Part shown: positions 9,115-52,590 of the stretch, one piece after another
Position numbering within the stretch: position 1 is the first letter of the stretch
How the letters are laid out: each line of letters begins with the position of its first letter
Assembly: GCA_951406725.2 (NCBI GenBank)
Contig: OX597841.1
Coordinates: 1,550,001-1,614,000 of the forward strand
DNA from: Octopus vulgaris
Taxonomy: Eukaryota
Direction: 5' to 3'
DNA: 64,000 nt
Made by a program: the position numbers and the translations under genes
Notes under the pieces: generated by a model
What the model saw: the letters and a program-made list of their open reading frames with translations, nothing else
The model's database searches: none
Told to the model about the DNA's origin: nothing

Positions 9115-9447
9115 AAGGCTCTGAAGAACTCGATAAGCTATGAACCAACCCAGGAACGTAAAAAAGCTGCTGTGAAATCTTCCACTTGGAAAAGAGGATT
9201 TGCTCATTTTTTGAAAAAAAAGCGTACAAAGCGTTACCCTAGTAACAACAATAACGACTCTGCCAACTCTTGCCACCTGACGGCCACCACCAATAACAGC
9301 CACACCACTAGCCCGGTCTCCAAATCCGCACCGTTTTGTTTAGATGCTGACAACATGAACCTAAAAGATCCAGAGAGTTTGTCTAGTGTATCCCCGGCAT
9401 CAGCAATACTTGCAAACACAGGTAGCTTCTTTCCACCTGTTTATTAG
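9115..9447 (+). CDS. coding exon (terminal, or internal if the donor at 9421/9422 is used) of an unidentified protein
   Basis: Polypyrimidine tract and CCAG acceptor at 9114, then 110 stop-free, non-repetitive codons KALKNSISYE...STWKRGFAHFLKKKRTKR...SFFPPVY*. In frame with phase 0 of exon 901-934. Possible donor CAG|GTAGCT. Confidence 0.6.
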   Translation, partial: KALKNSISYEPTQERKKAAVKSSTWKRGFAHFLKKKRTKRYPSNNNNDSANSCHLTATTNNSHTTSPVSKSAPFCLDADNMNLKDPESLSSVSPASAILANTGSFFPPVY

Positions 9448-9746: not shown

Positions 9747-9747
<1 letters not shown>

Positions 9748-10090
9748 AACAATTGCAGTGTGGAAGATGTTTGTAAGCCATTTAAGAAACACAAAAAACG
9801 TTCGATTCACTTCAACATTTAAGTTTAATTTGTCAAAATATTTTCGTCGCTTTAAGACTGCAACCTGTTCACTGACGAAAATATGACAGAGATGCAGCAC
9901 ATATTTTTGTCAGTGAAGAGGTCGCGGTCTTAAAGCGATGAAAATATTTTGACAAATTAAACTTAAATGTTGAAGTGAATCGAACGGCTTTTGTGTGTTT
10001 CTTAAATGGCTTACAAACACCTTCCACGCTGCAATTGTTTTCGCTTCAGCACACGATCTCAGATTAAGTCACTTGCTATGCAAGTACATC
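9747..10090. mobile_element. fold-back element with ~140-bp arms carrying a variant hammerhead
   Basis: AACAATTGCAGTGTGGAAG...GAAAATATG versus CATATTTTTGTC...CTGCAATTGTT; flanked by (TA)n. Confidence 0.75.
9829..9880 (-). ncRNA. hammerhead ribozyme, G3-C8 core variant
   Basis: Minus strand GTCA-GTGAACA-G GTTGC agtcttaaa GCGAC-GAAA-ATAT-T-T-TGAC; stem III AATATT is palindromic. Confidence 0.6.
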
Positions 10091-10137
10091 TCCATAATAT
10101 ATTTATATATGAATATATATATATGTATGTATATATA

Positions 10138-10467: not shown

Positions 10468-10803
10468 TTGTTGTGCAAGATTTTTTATGTGAAGTCGTGT
10501 GTTGAAACAGATATTGTTATATTTCGGAATGGTCATTTTTTTGCCAGTTTAGCCAATAAAAACACACGCACTATATATTTGGTGTTATTTTGCTTCAGTG
10601 TTATTTATTTATTTTTTACATTAATCTTAAAGACGAAAACAAAGGACCACTGATGTGGTCACAGGAGTGTGACAAAAGAACTCTGGCCGAAATAAAATTA
10701 AGATTAATGTAAAAAAATAAATAACGATGAAGCAGAGTAACACCAAATATATAGTGCGTGTGTTTTTATTGGCTAAACTGGCAAAATGACCATTCCGAAA
10801 TAT

Positions 10804-10807
<4 letters not shown>
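10468..10807. mobile_element. fold-back element with ~112-bp arms and a degenerate hammerhead in the spacer
   Basis: GTTATATTTCGGAATGGTCATTTT...ATCTTAA versus TTAAGAT...ATGACCATTCCGAAATATAAC. Spacer CCA CTGATGT GGTCACA GGAG TGTGAC AAAA GAACTC TGG. Confidence 0.7.
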
Positions 10808-10846
<39 letters not shown>

Positions 10847-25033: not shown

Positions 25034-25724
25034 AGGACTGTTTCTTTACTCTGCACAGATCTCTGACAGTCTTGCTTGGTAGCCCTTTCATATCTACACT
25101 GACCCTCTTGACCCAGACATGCTCCTTGGTTGCACTGCCAGGCCAGAGATTCCTGCAATTTATCTGTAGGGATCTCCCCACCAGCCTAGCATGAAAGTCC
25201 TCTCAAACAAACCATTTACTTTGTTCATATTGGTACCAGTAATTTTCTCGAGAGTATCTAAACCCTACTATACTCACCCCTAGTTCCCTATATATTGCTA
25301 AAACTTACAATCTTGACACATTTTGGGATCCAGGAGTGCAGCTTCGTCAATGAGAAGAGCTGCAGAAAAAAATGTGTGTCACAAAGGGAGGCCATACCTA
25401 TTTCTTTACTACCCACAAGGGGATAAACACAGAGGGGACAAACAAGGACAGACAAACGGGAGGCCATACCATCCAGAAAACATCTGAAAGTGGTGCAGCC
25501 TCCATGTGTGTTTGCTGAGTTTGCCTTCGTGGGGGCACTAGTAACCGGTGGCCCAACTGACCAATGGAATGCATACTTTGCACAGCAAGTGCAAGAACAC
25601 ATACTGCCACCTGACCAAATAGGGGCTGGGGAAAGGGACAGCGGTGGCACTTCTGCTTCACCTTTCAAGGTTGGCTTTTTCTCAGTGCATTTCTAATTAA
25701 GGTTGCTCATCCTGCTTATTTCTT

Positions 25725-26142
25725 ATTTCTTTACTGCCCACAAGGGGCTACACACAGAGGGGACAAAACAAGGGCAGACATATGGATTAAGTCGATTATA
25801 CCGACCCCAGTGCAAAACTGGTACTTAATTTATCAACCCCGAAAGGATGAAAGGCAAAGTCGACCTCGGTGGAATTTGAACTCAGAACGTAGCGACAGGC
25901 GAAAATACCTATCTCTTTACTGCCCACAAGGGGCTACACACAGAGGGGACAAAACAAGGACAGACAAATGGATTAAGTTGATTATACCGACCCCAGTGCA
26001 AAACTGGTACTTAATTTATCAACCTCGAAAGGATGAAAGGCAAATTCGACCTCGGTGGAATTTGAACTCAGAACGTAACGGCAGATGAAATACCGCTAAG
26101 CATTTCGCCTGGCATGCTAACATTTCTGCCAACTCGCCACCT
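25725..26142 (-). mobile_element. SINE type A, dimeric
   Basis: Two tandem core+tail units and one head. Confidence 0.85.
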
Positions 26143-27114: not shown

Positions 27115-27737
27115 TTTGTGTGGATGTGTGGATGTATGTGAATACTTATATATATATATATACATAGAAATATTTTTTAAAAACATCGACAACAAATCAT
27201 ATATGGATGAGACTGCAGCTGGTCAATATGGGTTAGTATAAAAATAATAATAACAATAGTAATACCAGTTGACTACACTCACCACAAGCTTTGTAGTAAG
27301 TTTCTAGTAGTTAGTAGTACCAAGCTCCAACCATATTTGTGTGTTTTATTCTATTTTTGTTGTGTGTTGTTTGTTTGTGATTTTATTTTTTTTAAATAGT
27401 GTTGCCATTATTATTATTGTAGAGGTGATGGGTACGTTCTCCGCCCCACTTATCTTCATCGGACCGTTTGAACCTCTAAGTCGTAAACAACTATATTTTC
27501 ATATGTACCACAGAGTCTGGGATTTGAAACTATGATCTTACAATCACAAAGTCATGGCCCTTCACACACACCTACATACTTATGGGCTTCCACTCAGTCT
27601 CCTTCTACCAAATTTGCGGACAATGGTATTGGTTTGCAAGGCGCTATAATAGAAGACACTTGCCCAAGGTGCCACAGAATGAGAATGAACCTGAAATCAC
27701 ATGATTGCAAAACAATTTTCTTAACCTCACAGCCATA

Positions 27738-28155
27738 CCTATTTCTTTACTGCCCACAAGGGGCTAAAAACAGAGAGGACAAAGAAGGACAGACAAACGG
27801 ATTAAGTCAATTACATTGACCCAAATGCATAACTGGTACTTAATTTATCGACCACGAAAGGATGAAAGGCAAAGTCGACCTCGGCGGAATTTGAACTCAG
27901 AACACATCGACGGGCGAAATACCTATTTCTTTACTGCCCACAAGGGGCTAAACACAGAGGGGACAAAGAAGGACAGACAAACGGATTAAGTCGATTACAT
28001 CAACCCAAATGCGTAACTGGTACTTAATTTATCGACCCCGAAAGGATGAAAGGCAAAGTCGACCTCGGCGGAATTTGAACTCAGAACACATCGACGGGCG
28101 AAATACCGCTAAGTATTCCGTCCAGCGTGCTAACGTTTCTGCAAGCTCGCTGCCT
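27738..28155 (-). mobile_element. SINE type A, dimeric, adjoining an older type B copy
   Basis: Two units plus a head; CACAGCCATACCT occurs on both sides (~27729 and ~28211). Confidence 0.85.
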
Positions 28156-30436: not shown

Positions 30437-30780
<344 letters not shown>

Positions 30781-31254
30781 TTATATATATATACATAGAT
30801 ATATGTATATATATATATATACATATATATATATGTATGTATATACATTTACCATTGTGGTTTTTCCGTATATCCTTCAATTTATTACATCAACTATTTC
30901 AACCAACACATGATAGGGTTTTTGCCAAGTTCTGGAAATCAACTCATAAAGTGATATGTCTTTCATATGATCTAATGCCCACAGAAGATCCTTTTTATCC
31001 CCACCAGTGGTGCAATTTTTCTTTATTTTTTAACGTTTTTTTTTGTGTTTGCAAGAGCAGCAGACTTGCAACAGCAGAAGAAATGCAGTGATCAGTGTAT
31101 TGTTGATACAGAAACTTGAAGTCCTGTATGTGAGTCTCTATAAACTGTATCACTCAATAACTACAGTCCACATTTCCAATGATATTGAGTATTGAGGTCT
31201 GCCTTTTTTGTCATCATACACAATTTGTCTTCATTAGAATAGAAGATCTGAAAT

Positions 31255-31300
31255 CCACCTGATGAATGTCCTGAGAAGAGACATGAAACAATTGTAGTGG
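31255..31300 (+). ncRNA. canonical minimal hammerhead ribozyme
   Basis: CCAC-CTGATGA-ATGTC ctgagaaga GACAT-GAAA-CAATTG-T-A-GTGG. All core bases and all three stems are intact. Confidence 0.85.
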
Positions 31301-31399
31301 CGAATATAATTTTATTTAATTTATATTAAATTTTTTTATGTATTGGATTAAGTCTTTCTTTGTTTGATTTGCAAAATAGTGGTTTTGTCTCTAATTAAA

Positions 31400-33025: not shown

Positions 33026-34258
33026 TTAACCCTTTCGTTACCAACCCGGCTGAAACCGGCTCTGGCTCTGTAGTATAAATGTCTTGTTTTCATAAATTTT
33101 GAATTAAAATCTTCCACCAAACTTTAGTCACACTTTATGTTCCTAACACTAGCTTAATGATAACAAAGTTATTTTACTAAATTCTTTGTTATATTTAAAG
33201 TAATTGAAAGAAACTCAGAGCATCTCAACAGAAGTATAGTAACAAGAGGGTTAAAATATATAATAGAGAAACAATTCTTAACTCTTTTGATACCAACCAG
33301 GCTGAAACCGGCTCTGTAGTACAAATGTCTTGTTTTCATAAATTTTGAATTAAAATCTTCCACCAAACTTTAGTCATAATTTATGTTCCTAGCACGAGCT
33401 TAATGATAACGAAGTTATTTTACTAAATTCTTTGTTACATCTAAAATAATTGAGAGAATCACAGAGCATCTCAAAATAAATATGGTAACAAAAGGGTTGA
33501 AATATATAATAGAGAAACAATTCTTAACCCTTTTGATACCAACCTGGCTGAAACCGGCTCTGGCTCTGTAGTACAAATGTCTTGTTTTCATAAGTTTTGA
33601 ATTAAAATCTTCCACCAAACTTTAGTCACAATTTATGTTCCTAACACTAGCTTAATGATAACTAAGTTATTTTACTAAATTCTTTGTTACATTTAAAATT
33701 AATTGAAAGAAACACAGAGCATCTCAAAATAAATATGGTAACAAAAGGGTTGAAATATATAATAGAGAAACAATTCTTAACTCTTTCATTACCAACCTGG
33801 CTGGAACCGGCTCTGGCTCTGTAGTACAAATGTCTTGTTTTCATAAATTTTGAATTAAAATCTTCCACCAAACTTTAGTCACAATTTATGTTCCTAACAC
33901 TAGCTGAATTATAACTAAGATATTTTTCTAAATTCATTGTTATATTTAAAATTAATTGAGAGAATCACAGAGCATCTCAAAATAAATATGGTAACAAAAG
34001 GGTTGAAATATATAATAGAGAAACAATTCTTAACTCTTTCGATACCAACCTGGCTGAAACCGGCTCTGGCTCTGTAGTACAAATGTCTTGTTTTCATAAG
34101 TTTTGAATTAAAATCTTCCACCAAACTTTAGTCATAATTTATGTTCCTAGCACGAGCTTAATGATAACGAAGTTATTTTACTAAATTCTTTGTTACATCT
34201 AAAATAATTGAGAGAATCACAGAGCATCTCAAAATAAATATGGTAACAAAAGGGTTAA
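33026..34258. mobile_element. tandem array of five piggyBac-like MITEs (~250-bp period)
   Basis: TTAA CCCTTTCGTTACC...GGTAACAAAAGGG TTAA termini; the spacer ATATATAATAGAGAAACAATTC is repeated between copies. Confidence 0.85.
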
Positions 34259-43332: not shown

Positions 43333-43495
43333 TGGCGCAGGAGTGGCTGTGTGGTAAGTAGGTTGTTTACCAGCCACATGGTTCCGGGTTCAGTCCCACT
43401 GCGTGGCACCTTGGGCAAGTGTCTTCTACTATAGCCTCGGGTCAACCAAAGCCTTGTGAGTGGATTTGGTAGACGGAAACTGAAAGAAGACCGTC

Positions 43496-43530
<35 letters not shown>

Positions 43531-44105
43531 CGCAGGAGTGGCTGTGTGGTAAGTAGCTTGTTTACCAGCCACATGGTTCCGGGTTCAGTCCCACTGCATG
43601 GCACCTTGGGCAAGTGTCTTCTACTATAGCCTCGGGCCAACCAAAGCCTTGTGAGTGGATTTGGTAGACAGAAACTGAAAGAAGCCCGTCGTATATATAT
43701 ATATATATATATATAGGCGCAGGAGTGGCTGTGTGGTAAGTAGCTTGCTTACCAACCACATGGTTCCAGGTTCAGTCCTACTGCGTGGCATCTTGGGCAA
43801 GTGTCTTCTACTATAGCCTCGGGCCGACCAATGCCTTGTGAGTGGATTTGGTAGACGAAAACTGAAAGAACCCCATCGTATATATGTATATTTATATATG
43901 CGTTTGTGTGTCTGTGTTTGTCCCCCTAGCATTGCTTGACAACCGATGCTGGTGTGTTGACGTCCCCGTCACTTAGTGGTTCGGCAAAAGAGACCGATAG
44001 AATAAGTACTGGGCTTACAAAAGAATAAGTCCCGGGGTCAAGTTGCTCGATTAAAGGCGGTGCTCCAGCATGGCCGCAGTCAAATGACTGAAACAAGTAA
44101 AAGAG
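43333..44105 (+). mobile_element. SINE type B with a triplicated head/core module
   Basis: GGCGCAGGAGTGGCTGTGTGGTAAG at ~43334, 43529 and 43716, separated by (TA)n, with a single 3' module. The core CCTTGGGCAAGTG resembles the CORE-SINE domain. Confidence 0.9.
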
Positions 44106-47933: not shown

Positions 47934-50900
47934 GAGGCGGCGAGCCGGCAGAATCGTTAGCACGCCGTGCGGAATGCCCAGCGGTATTTCGTACGCCGCT
48001 ACGTTCTGAGTTCATATTCCGCCGAGGTCGACGTTGCTTTTCATCCTTTCGGGGTCGATAAATTAAGTACCAGTTACGCACTGGTGTCGATGTAATTGAC
48101 TTAAACCGTTTGTCTGTCCTTGTTCGTCCCCTCTATGTTTAGCTCCTTGTGGGTAGTAGAGAAATAGGTATTTCGTCTGCCGCTACGTTCTGAGTTCATA
48201 TTCCGCCGAGGTCGACGTTGCTTTTCATCCTTTCGGGGTCGATAAATTAAGTACCAGTTACGCACTGGTGTCGATGTAATTGACTTAATCCGTTTGTCTG
48301 TCCTTGTTCGTCCCCTCTATGTTTAGCCCCTTGTGGGTAGTAGAGAAATAGGTATTTCGTCTGCCGCTACGTTCTGAGTTCATATTCCGCCGAGGTCGAC
48401 GTTGCTTTTCATCCTTTCGGGGTCGATAAATTAAGTACCAGTTACGCACTGGAGTCGATGTAATTGACTTAATCCGTTTGTCTGTCCTTGTTCGTCCCCT
48501 CTATGTTTAGCTCCTTGTGGGTAGTAGAGAAATAGGTATTTCGTCTGCCGCTACGTTCTGAGTTCAAATTCCGCCGAGGTCGACGTTGCTTTTCATCCTT
48601 TCGGGGTCGATTAAATAAGTACCAGTTACGCACTGGAGTCGATGTAATTGACTTAATCCGTTTGTCTGTCCTTGTTCGTCCCCTCTATGTTTAGCCCCTT
48701 GTGGGTAGTAGAGAAATAGGTATTTCGTCTGCCGCTACATTCTGAGTTCATATTCCGCCGAGGTCGACGTTGCTTTTCATCCTTTCGGGGTCGATAAATT
48801 AAGTACCAGTTACGCACTGGTGTCGATGTAATTGACTTAATCCGTTTGTCTGTCCTTGTTCGTCCCCTCTATGTTTAGCCCCTTGTGGGTAGTAGAGAAA
48901 TAGGTATTTCGTCTGCCGCTACGTTCTGAGTTCATATTCCGCCGAGGTCGACGTTGCTTTTCATCCTTTCGGGGTCGATAAATTAAGTACCAGTTACGCA
49001 CTGGAGTCGATGTAATTGACTTAAACCGTTTGTCTGTCCTTGTTCGTCCCCTCTGTGTTTAGCCCCTTGTGGGTAGTAGAGAAATAGGTATTTCGTCTGC
49101 CGCTACGTTCTGAGTTTAATATTCCGCCGAGGTCGACGTTGCTTTTCATCCTTTCGGGGTCGATTAAATAAGTACCAGTTACGCACTGGAGTCGATGTAA
49201 TTGACTTAAACCGTTTGTCTGTCCTTGTTCGTCCCCTCTGTGTTTAGCCCCTTGTGGGTAGTAGAGAAATAGGTATTTCGTCTGCCGCTACGTTCTGAGT
49301 TCATATTCCGCCGAGGTCGACGTTGCTTTTCATCCTTTCGGGGTCGATAAATTAAGTACCAGTTACGCACTGGTGTCGATGTAATTGACTTAATCCGTTT
49401 GTCTGTCCTTGTTCGTCCCCTCTATGTTTAGCCCCTTGTGGGTAGTAGAGAAATAGGTATTTCGTACGCCGCTACGTTCTGAGTTCATATTCCGCCGAGG
49501 TCGACGTTGCTTTTCATCCTTTCGGGGTCGATAAATTAAGTACCAGTTACGCACTGGTGTCGATGTAATTGACTTAATCCGTTTGTCTGTCCTTGTTCGT
49601 CCCCTCTGTGTTTAGCCCCTTGTGGGTAGTAGAGAAATAGGTATTTCGTACGCCGCTACGTTCTGAGTTCATATTCCGCCGAGGTCGACGTTGCTTTTCA
49701 TCCTTTCGGGGTCGATAAATTAAGTACCAGTTACGCACTGGTGTCGATGTAATTGACTTAATCCGTTTGTCTGTCCTTGTTCGTCCCCTCTGTGTTTAGC
49801 CCCTTGTGGGTAGTAGAGAAATAGGTATTTCGTCTGCCGCTACGTTCTGAGTTCATATTCCGCCGAGGTCGACGTTGCTTTTCATCCTTTCGGGGTCGAT
49901 AAATTAAGTACCAGTTACGCACTGGTGTCGATGTAATTGACTTAATCCGTTTGTCTGTCCTTGTTCGTCCCCTCTGTGTTTAGCCCCTTGTGGGTAGTAG
50001 AGAAATAGGTATTTCGTCTGCCGCTACGTTCTGAGTTCATATTCCGCCGAGGTCGACGTTGCTTTTCATCCTTTCGGGGTCGATAAATTAAGTACCAGTT
50101 ACGCACTGGTGTCGATGTAATTGACTTAATCCGTTTGTCTGTCCTTGTTCGTCCCCTCTGTGTTTAGCCCCTTGTGGGTAGTAGAGAAATAGGTATTTCG
50201 TCTGCCGCTACGTTCTGAGTTAATATTCCGCCGAGGTCGACGTTGCTTTTCATCCTTTCGGGGTCGATAAATTAAGTACCAGTTACGCACTGGTGTCGAT
50301 GTAATTGACTTAATCCGTTTGTCTGTCCTTGTTCGTCCCCTCTGTGTTTAGCCCCTTGTGGGTAGTAGAGAAATAGGTATTTCGTCTGCCGCTACGTTCT
50401 GAGTTCATATTCCGCCGAGGTCGACGTTGCTTTTCATCCTTTCGGGGTCGATAAATTAAGTACCAGTTACGCACTGGTGTCGATGTAATTGACTTAATCC
50501 GTTTGTCTGTCCTTGTTCGTCCCCTCTGTGTTTAGCCCCTTGTGGGTAGTAGAGAAATAGGTATTTCGTCTGCCGCTACGTTCTGAGTTCATATTCCGCC
50601 GAGGTCGACGTTGCTTTTCATCCTTTCGGGGTCGATAAATTAAGTACCAGTTACGCACTGGTGTCGATGTAATTGACTTAATCCGTTTGTCTGTCCTTGT
50701 TCGTCCCCTCTGTGTTTAGCCCCTTGTGGGTAGTAGAGAAATAGGTATTTCGTCTGCCGCTACGTTCTGAGTTAATATTCCGCCGAGGTCGACGTTGCTT
50801 TTCATCCTTTCGGGGTCGATTAAATAAGTACCAGTTACGCACTGGAGTCGATGTAATTGACTTAAACCGTTTGTCTGTCCTTGTTCGTCCCCTCTGTGTT

Positions 50901-52590
50901 TAGCCCCTTGTGGGTAGTAGAGAAATAGGTATTTCGTCTGCCGCTACGTTCTGAGTTAATATTCCGCCGAGGTCGACGTTGCTTTTCATCCTTTCGGGGT
51001 CGATTAAATAAATACCAGTTACGCACTGGAGTCGATGTAATTGACTTAAACCGTTTGTCTGTCCTTGTTCGTCCCCTCTGTGTTTAGCCCCTTGTGGGTA
51101 GTAGAGAAATAGGTATTTCGTCTGCCGCTACGTTCTGAGTTCATATTCCGCCGAGGTCGACGTTGCTTTTCATCCTTTCGGGGTCGATAAATTAAGTACC
51201 AGTTACGCACTGGTGTCGATGTAATTGACTTAATCCGTTTGTCTGTCCTTGTTCGTCCCCTCTGTGTTTAGCCCCTTGTGGGTAGTAGAGAAATAGGTAT
51301 TTCGTCTGCCGCTACGTTCTGAGTTCATATTCCGCCGAGGTCGACGTTGCTTTTCATCCTTTCGGGGTCGATAAATTAAGTACCAGTTACGCACTGGCGT
51401 CGATGTAATTGACTTAATCCGTTCGTCCCCTCTGTGTTTAGCCCCGTGTGGGCAGTAAAGAAATAGAAATAGATATTTCGTACGCCGCTACGTTCTGAGT
51501 TCAAATTCCGCCTAGGTCGACTTTGCCTTTTATCCTTTCGGGGTCGATAAATAAACTACCAGTTACGCACTGGTGTTGATCTAATCGACTTAATCTGTTA
51601 GTTTGTCCTTTCTGTGTTTATCCCCTTGTGGGTAGTAAAGAAATAAGTATTTCGTCTGCCGTTACGTTCTGAGTTCAAATTCCACCGAGGTCGACTTTGC
51701 CTTTCATCCTTTCGGGGTCGATTAAATAAGTACCAGTTACACACTGGGGTCGATGTAATTGACTTAACCCGTTTGTCTGTCCTTGTTCGTCCCCTCTGTG
51801 GGTAGACTTAATCTGTTTGTCCCCTCTGTGTTTAGCCCCTTATGGGTAGTAAGGAAATAGAAATAAGTATTTCGTCTGCCGCTACGTTCTGAGTTCTAAT
51901 TCCGCCGAGGTCGACTTTGCCTTTCATCCTTTCGGGGTCGATTAAATAAGTACCAGTTTCGCACTGGGGTCGATGTAATTGACTTAATCTGTTTGTCCCC
52001 TCTGTGTTTAGCCCCTTATGGGTACTAAAGAAATAGAAATAGGTATTTCGTCTGCCGCTACGTTCTGAGTTCAAATTCCGCTGAGGTCGACTTTGCCTTT
52101 CATCCTTTCGGGGTCGATTAAATAAGTACCAGTCACACACTGGGGTCGATGTAATCGACTTAATCCGTTTGCCTGTCCTTGTTCGTCCCCTCTGTGTGTA
52201 GCCCCTTGTGGGTAGTAAAGAAATCGAAACAGGTATTTCGTACGCCGTTATTTCTGAGTTCAAATGCCGCCGAGGTCGACTTTGCCTTTGATCCTTTCGG
52301 GGTCGATTAAATAAGTACCAGTTACACACTGGGGTCGATGTAATCGACTTAATCCGTTTGCCTGTCCTTGGTTGTCCCCTCTGCGTTTAGCCCCTTGTGG
52401 GTAGTAAAGAAATCGAAACAGGTAATTCGTACGCCGTTACGTTTTGAGTTCAAATGCCGCCGAAGTCGACTTTGCCTTTCATCCTTTCGGGGTCGATAAA
52501 TCAAGTACCAGTTGCGTACTGGTGTTGATCTAATCGACTGGCTCCCTTCCCCCAAATATTTCGGGCCTTGTGCCTAAAAGTAGAGAAGAA
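47934..52590 (+). repeat. SINE type A-derived tandem array, 184-bp period, ~25 units
   Basis: TTCA(T/A)ATTCCGCCGAGGTCGAC at 48011, 48195, 48379, 48563 and onward. One SINE head at the left end and one alternative tail at the right end. Confidence 0.95.

What the first reader, a model, noticed from the sequence alone, without database searches (positions are those of the whole stretch)
9829..9956. Hammerhead with the inverted G3-C8 tertiary pair
The minus arm core is GUGAACA instead of CUGANGA, so the C3-G8 pair is swapped to G3-C8. Stem I (GTCA/TGAC), stem II (GTTGC/GCGAC) and stem III (AATATT) are in place. The 3-8 Watson-Crick pair is an established requirement, so a compensatory swap is a strong sign of selection. 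The mirror arm has GUGAAGA (G3/G8 mismatch). Standard CUGANGA searches would miss this family.
Basis: partly seen in the sequence, partly recalled or inferred. Interest (0 to 1): 0.7.

Follow-up and report, generated by a model that had tools for sequence, protein, structure and literature searches.

The report
Retroelement hammerhead with swapped core pair
An abundant octopus jumping-gene family carries a hammerhead-type RNA motif in which two paired core letters are swapped (G-C where related families have C-G), so it is likely a natural, slowed-down self-cutting RNA of a variant so far seen only as a laboratory mutant in the papers I could read; cutting is untested.

Summary
Confirmed at family level. 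The window holds a head-to-head pair of pseudo-LTR fragments of a Penelope-like retrotransposon (RT plus GIY-YIG upstream in longer copies). G3/C8 is the family state: 588 of 643 exact genomic matches; 0 are C3/G8; the plus arm's G8 is a minority state (24). Related families in the same genome (one with a 53% identical protein) carry the homologous hammerhead with canonical C3/G8 and compensatory stem changes; an older sister family also has G3/C8 (3 of 3). So the swap is a real covariation. Activity is unshown: copies mostly start about 60 nt upstream of the predicted cut, often with an untemplated G (cap-like), with no peak at the cut site; a young sister family has C9. Most likely a slow, dimer- or protein-assisted ribozyme. 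Natural U3-A8 and engineered G3-C8 are published; I found no natural G3-C8 in the held library, but the key variant survey (Lünse 2017) was unavailable. The scan noted a G3-C8 candidate before, in a protist element.

The parts
9829..9879 (-). Type I hammerhead motif, G3/C8 core, extra G after A9, U17; predicted cut between 9836 and 9835; three substitutions from the family state, predicted misfolded
   Evidence: (54.6 bits with own model)
9906..9956 (+). Mirror hammerhead motif with G3/G8 mismatch (9918) and U11.1 (9939); predicted cut position would be 9949/9950; predicted inactive
9747..9885 (-). Left arm: pseudo-LTR fragment ending at the shorter of the family's two 3' end points, next to (TA)n
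9889..10040 (+). Right arm: pseudo-LTR fragment starting at the family's modal 5' boundary with the extra G (9889)
10041..10098 (+). About 55-nt 'tail' present on one arm only, ending at the second 3' end point, next to (TA)n
   Evidence: tail feature described in PMC8557442 and PMC11167929
10006..10098 (+). Start of the element's ORF (MAYKHLPRCN...), homologous to the N-terminus of the intact sister-family ORF
   Evidence: 11 of 25 identical, E 2e-05 pairwise
10640..10695 (+). Comparison point: homologous hammerhead of a sister Penelope-like family, C3/G8, decayed at positions 9 and 12

Best explanation
The motif is the hammerhead-ribozyme element in the pseudo-LTR of an octopus Penelope-like retrotransposon family whose consensus core carries G3-C8 where related families carry C3-G8; it likely cuts slowly and only when two RNAs pair through the AAUAUU palindrome or the element's own protein folds it, while most new insertions were likely copied from uncut, capped RNA. 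Shown: Penelope context, family consensus, homology and covariation with sister families, 5' and 3' end distributions. Inferred: selection keeps the 3-8 Watson-Crick pair because the 2'-OH of nucleotide 8 must be positioned as general acid (established knowledge); G3-C8, the extra G, U17 (G3 can wobble-pair with it and extend stem I) and a weak all-A-U dimer helix make it slow; the window's locus is an insertion of two cDNAs primed from both ends of a cut in (TA)n and joined head to head, and is itself probably dead.
For: Longer copies continue upstream into an ORF with YVDD, a CX3CxxC linker and GIY-YIG (Pfam PF01541 E 9e-05). Inverted partner within 300 nt in 46 of 60 loci, (AT)5 downstream in 39 of 60 (about 10 of these are one insertion carried by another repeat); two 3' end clusters, 103 and 140 of 291 arms. 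G3/C8 588 of 643. Sister family found by protein alone (53% identity): C3/G8 in 52 of 52; 946 genomic matches to a canonical-core pattern with the same extra nucleotide and stem II start. All other core positions (U4, G5, A6, G10.1-C11.1, G12-A14, A15.1) are the same in 18 of 18 representatives while most downstream flanks barely align; compensatory changes in stems I, II and III, 0 of 500 shuffles reach the covariation score (rows hand-picked, see against). Older G3/C8 sister with other loop II, position 7, stem II pair and a 4-nt palindrome: 3 of 3 with N at 3 and 8. Engineered C3G/G8C partly restores a Penelope-like hammerhead, which needs its protein, and cutting is not needed for insertion (PMC11167929). 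Non-selected partner arms start 54-66 nt upstream of the cut in 43 of 121, within -2..+1 in 1 of 121; G precedes the boundary AG in 26 of 34 independent junctions where the genomic base is C.
Against: No cleavage data. No excess of copies starting at the predicted cut: 14 of 46 truncations in 4 of 17 positions, about 11 expected. A young sister family with intact ORFs has C9 instead of A9 in 52 of 52, and G3/G8 copies are over-represented (23 of 34 non-C8 G3 copies; both arms G8 in 2 of 5 pairs), so lineages with damaged cores can spread. The 18-row alignment was picked with patterns that fix positions 3 and 8, and I left out 7 mismatched rows (L238, L241, L243, L246, L249, L250, L251) and one U3-A8 double mutant (L248), so its 100% pairing is not a test. 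The swap is probably one evolutionary event, not many. The double hammerhead (-27.0 kcal/mol) is no more stable than two monomers with G3-U17 (2 x -14.5) in the nearest-neighbour model. The inserted base is G, while the published consensus has H there. Copy counts are inflated by a tandem array and a hitch-hiking insertion.
Confidence: 0.65

Rival explanations
1. Catalytically dead scaffold: the fold (stems, 3-8 pair) is kept as a structure for the Penelope protein, translation control or promoter spacing, and no longer cuts at a meaningful rate.
For: Copies come from uncut RNA; no footprint at the cut site; C9 in an active sister family; G8 copies spread; cutting dispensable for insertion in vitro.
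Against: G12, A13, A14, G5, A6 and a Watson-Crick 3-8 pair are kept across families whose flanks have diverged; these are catalytic requirements rather than needs of a simple stem scaffold.
Confidence: 0.22
2. Fast, fully active ribozyme in which G3-C8 is neutral because of compensating context (U17, tertiary contacts, protein).
For: Long retention in two families; G3-C8 is reported more active when position 17 is not C (PMC3884650, data not shown there).
Against: Engineered swaps rescue only partly; metazoan Penelope hammerheads are weak even with canonical cores; full-length uncut templates dominate.
Confidence: 0.09
3. Chance: two independent founder mutations that happen to pair, fixed by amplification of one master copy.
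For: Probably a single event; given both positions change, one third of outcomes pair.
Against: Only these two of about 13 core positions changed (rough chance 3/78 x 1/3, about 0.01, own arithmetic); the state persisted while loop II, position 7, a stem II pair and stem III changed.
Confidence: 0.04

Closest known systems
Minimal type I hammerheads of metazoan Penelope-like elements (Cervera and de la Peña 2014, PMC4209133; parts 1-2 of 4 of main text and parts 1-2 of 3 of the supplement read)
   Same: Place in the pseudo-LTR, extra nucleotide between 9 and 10.1, G10.1-C11.1, palindromic stem III, no obvious loop I-II contacts, U17 common, inverted solo pairs 100-700 bp apart.
   Different: None of the 56 aligned rows read in Fig. 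S3 has G3-C8 (C3-G8, U3-A8, one U3-G8); consensus insertion is H, here G; no cephalopod in those rows.
Natural U3-A8 hammerheads (Perreault et al. 2011, PMC3088659, passages read; Schistosoma Cercyon, PMC4209133)
   Same: Natural covariation of the 3-8 tertiary Watson-Crick pair.
   Different: U3-A8 needs two transitions and keeps pyrimidine-purine order; G3-C8 needs two transversions and reverses it.
Engineered C3G/G8C hammerheads, including the anole Poseidon element PAc (Frangieh et al. 2024, PMC11167929, parts 1-2 of 4 read; review PMC8495972, one passage)
   Same: Same swap, same kind of element; two RT start sites giving a tail; uncut RNA is the insertion template.
   Different: There a laboratory mutant with partial rescue; here the wild-type state of a natural family.
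Neptune/Nematis-type EN+ Penelope-like elements (Craig et al. 2021, PMC8557442, passages read)
   Same: C-terminal GIY-YIG, CX2-5CxxC linker, (TA)n target bias, inverted 5' partner, one-sided tail.
   Different: Clade not placed by a tree here; tail is about 55 nt rather than 30-40.
Dimer-cleaving Penelope-associated hammerhead variants (Lünse, Weinberg and Breaker 2017)
   Same: By title and recollection: diminished stem III, cleavage as dimers.
   Different: Paper not held; whether it lists G3-C8 cores is unknown to me.

Membership tests
Hammerhead ribozyme, type I | Three-way junction order stem I - core - stem II - GAAA - stem III - NUH - stem I | tested here: met
   for the family state, not for the window's minus arm as folded
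Hammerhead ribozyme, type I | U4, G5, A6, A9, G12, A13, A14, A15.1-U16.1, G10.1-C11.1 | tested here: met
   per-position counts over about 230-250 arms
Hammerhead ribozyme, type I | Literal C3 and G8 | tested here: not met
   0 of 643 C3/G8
Hammerhead ribozyme, type I | Watson-Crick pair between positions 3 and 8 | tested here: met
   588 G3/C8 plus 1 A3/U8 of 643; C3/G8 in sister families
Hammerhead ribozyme, type I | Rfam hammerhead model at gathering score | tested here: inconclusive
   0 hits in 6 loci, three of them canonical-core sisters; none among the 150 listed of 329 window hits
Hammerhead ribozyme, type I | Site-specific self-cleavage after H17 | not testable with these tools
   only assembled contigs were available; genomic 5' ends give no peak
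EN+ Penelope-like element | RT followed by GIY-YIG endonuclease in one ORF, upstream of the pseudo-LTR | tested here: met
   only partial ORFs (up to 530 aa) seen for this family
EN+ Penelope-like element | Pseudo-LTR made of 5' UTR plus ORF start; inverted or tandem partners; one-sided tail; AT-rich target | tested here: met
EN+ Penelope-like element | Clade (Neptune versus Nematis or other) by RT phylogeny | not tested
   only the CX3CxxC linker was read
Non-LTR retrozyme | Tandem protein-less repeats with a hammerhead in each unit, expressed as circular RNA | tested here: inconclusive
   one 30-unit, 166-bp array exists elsewhere; the window locus is an inverted pair, not a tandem; circles untested

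The most novel reading that the evidence does not exclude
This is the first natural hammerhead family with a reversed G3-C8 pair, and the reversal is an evolved brake: one octopus Penelope clade has explored the core (C3-G8, G3-C8, possibly U3-A8, and C9) to keep cutting slow enough that capped, uncut RNA survives as the template, with cleavage switched on only by dimerisation or the element's protein.
Probability: 0.3. Interest if true: 0.62.

Novelty: new variant of a known kind. Interest (0 to 1): 0.42.

Why it matters
It would be a natural confirmation, in thousands of genomic copies and against matched canonical sister families, of the tertiary 3-8 pair in its reversed form, which the papers read know only from mutagenesis. 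It shows that descriptor searches should allow any Watson-Crick 3-8 pair. The set of sister families (same scaffold, different cores, one with intact young ORFs) is a ready panel for the open question of what Penelope hammerheads do and whether their weakness is selected. It is a variant of a known ribozyme in a known place, not a new system.

Tried and rejected
Rfam: no hammerhead among the listed window hits and none in six loci including canonical sisters: uninformative. Genomic footprint of cleavage: (100 of 360 rows, read by eye) suggested more starts at 0 and -1, but the two-sided control (70 of the 100 listed rows of 1130 re-fetched, 30 left out as full-length or indel by eye) was flat, and several starts at 0 are explained by microhomology with the inverted stem I strand. 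RNA: three guessed-RNA runs hold the pseudo-LTR as contigs; they cannot show strand, ends or cutting, and showed no splice joint, so the branch-point/acceptor-like stretch just upstream of the boundary stays open as intron end versus transcription start. A Helentron-like non-autonomous element was considered from the short terminal complementarity and 3' hairpin and dropped once the RT-GIY-YIG ORF was found. Other core registers (shifting by the extra G) do not give a better core. G3/G8 as a single clean sub-lineage: 20 of 23 copies fetched showed no shared diagnostic change beyond a local pair. Literature searches for natural G3-C8; cephalopod hammerheads; none listed such a report. Not held: Lünse 2017, Martick and Scott 2006, Hammann 2012. 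Supplement file 1 of PMC4209133 could not be searched and figure panels are not readable.

Full report
Observation. The letters are as reported. On the minus strand the order is stem I (9876-9873), GUGAACA (9872-9866), one extra G (9865), stem II (9864-9860 with 9850-9846), GAA, the palindrome AAUAUU (9842-9837), U17 (9836) and stem I (9835-9832). The plus arm mirrors it with G at position 8 (9918). A strict descriptor gave 2 hits in the window and 0 in 100 shuffles. The two arms (9747-9885 and 9900-10040; 8 mismatches and one 2-nt gap) form a head-to-head palindrome inside (TA)n, and the plus arm has about 55 more bases at its outer end.

What it belongs to. The host is an octopus: a protein labelled Octopus matches this genome fully. 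The repeat is abundant: 643 exact matches to one 32-base pattern and 1431 to a second subfamily pattern; these counts include a tandem array and a hitch-hiking insertion. Longer copies run upstream through about 1 kb of (TACA)n-rich sequence into an ORF with the RT motif YVDD, a CX3CxxC linker and a GIY-YIG domain. The bases after the ribozyme start the ORF, homologous to the N-terminus of an intact sister ORF. Inverted partners (46 of 60 loci), (AT)n flanks (39 of 60) and two 3' end points (103 and 140 of 291 arms) match the described anatomy of Penelope-like elements (PMC8557442; PMC11167929). The window locus is thus a pair of pseudo-LTR fragments.

Positions 3 and 8 within the family. With N at both places, 643 matches split into 588 G3/C8, 34 G3 with another base at 8 (23 G, 7 T, 4 A) and 21 with another base at 3 (13 A, 7 T, 1 C); none is C3/G8. 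The second subfamily has G3/C8 in 96 of the first 100 rows. Contigs from runs under four organism labels show no other letter at 5% or more at either place, while CpG sites and loop II vary.

Covariation with relatives. A family found by protein search alone (53% identical over 518 residues) has a motif at the same place with C3/G8 in 52 of 52 cases. A canonical-core pattern with the same extra base and stem II start has 946 matches, from several families. In 18 hand-picked representatives U4, G5, A6, G10.1-C11.1, G12-A14 and A15.1 are invariant, and stems I, II and III change in compensating pairs; I picked these rows with patterns that fix positions 3 and 8 and left out eight rows (seven mismatched, one double mutant), so the full pairing in that alignment is not itself a test. 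An older family closest to ours in flank sequence differs in loop II, position 7, one stem II pair and palindrome length, yet is G3/C8 in 3 of 3 matches with N at both places. The simplest reading is one swap in their common ancestor, kept since. Since only these two of about 13 core positions changed and they still pair, chance is unlikely (about 0.01 by my rough arithmetic).

This copy. The minus arm differs from a consensus-type copy at three places; stem I drops to 4 bp and the predicted fold is another hairpin. The plus arm folds but has G8 and U11.1. In a read-through RNA the arms would pair with each other (-213 kcal/mol). The locus is probably dead; the finding is about the family.

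How it most likely works. Established: nucleotide 8 supplies the 2'-OH general acid and G12 the base (PMC6155905); G8C is very damaging and C3G partly rescues it (PMC8495972), also in a Penelope-like hammerhead that cuts only with its protein and whose cutting is not needed for insertion (PMC11167929). Metazoan Penelope hammerheads are weak and act as dimers through a palindromic stem III (PMC4209133). Inferred here: two RNAs swap stem I strands and pair through AAUAUU; this form is about as stable as two monomers, in which G3 can wobble-pair with U17. C17 would trap G3 in a full pair (by analogy with the C3-G17 trap, PMC3884650); the G3/C8 families have U17, as do several C3/G8 sisters, so U17 may have allowed the swap. 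Expected result: slow, conditional cleavage after UUU.

Evidence that most templates were uncut. Partner arms that were not selected for the ribozyme start 54-66 nt upstream of the cut in 43 of 121 cases and within -2..+1 in 1 of 121. At that boundary a G not in the genomic template precedes AG in 26 of 34 independent junctions, as a copied cap would give (recalled knowledge). An enriched search for truncations around the cut was flat: 14 of 46 in 4 of 17 positions. RNA contigs add only presence. Against a needed activity: the young sister family has C9 in 52 of 52, and G3/G8 copies are more frequent than the transition G3/T8.

Comparison with print. Natural U3-A8 is published (PMC3088659; PMC4209133). 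None of the 56 aligned Penelope hammerheads read in the supplement of PMC4209133 has G3-C8. Searches listed no natural G3-C8 report, and 9 and 93 no cephalopod hammerhead study; of the papers listed, I read only the passages or parts named above. Lünse et al. 2017, the main survey of Penelope-linked variants, is not held, so novelty is provisional. This scan earlier noted a G3-C8 candidate with an extra base in a protist element (e1-7369241; not checked), and no look-alike of this sequence.

Verdict. A real, family-wide G3-C8 hammerhead motif with good comparative support; a new variant of a known kind; cleavage untested and probably slow. Interest 0.42.

Noticed in passing
window 10480-10810 (hammerhead 10640-10695 +): Inverted pair of a sister Penelope-like family; its young, intact-ORF copies (up to 1312 aa) have C3/G8 but C at position 9 in 52 of 52 motifs, older copies have A9.
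   Followed up: partly
window 31251-31302 + and 30535-30578 -: Two further hammerhead-like motifs with canonical CUGANGA cores and an extra nucleotide, probably pseudo-LTRs of other Penelope-like families.
   Followed up: no
window 9115-9421 +: Open frame bounded by acceptor- and donor-like sites, probably a host exon (no Pfam hit); the insertion would then be intronic, with the G8 arm in host sense, and both arms would pair into a 140-bp hairpin in any read-through RNA.
   Followed up: partly
L061:4100-9050 (G000:C2, 17.908-17.913 Mb): Thirty tandem 166-bp units, each with the intact G3/C8 motif: a retrozyme-like array and a natural substrate for dimer cleavage.
   Followed up: partly
L051, L151, L152, L159, L160, L161, L169, L171, L175-L178: One head-to-head insertion with identical junction and identical flanks recurs at 12 loci: it has been spread as a passenger of a larger, unidentified repeat.
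   Followed up: partly
family 5' boundary, window 9889: An untemplated G precedes the boundary in 26 of 34 independent junctions; resembles a reverse-transcribed cap (interpretation from recalled knowledge). The same place also looks like a 3' splice site.
   Followed up: partly
L234:1493-1547 +, L247:1504-1558 -: Two diverged sister copies with U3-A8; family state or double mutation not settled.
   Followed up: no
window 47983-52539, 33026-34256, 43334-43899, 25724-26084, 27735-28107: Tandem arrays of 184-253-bp units (one of about 25 copies) of common repeats.
   Followed up: no
L126:1627-4065 +: A second, unrelated RT-GIY-YIG Penelope-like ORF lies directly beside a copy of this family.
   Followed up: no
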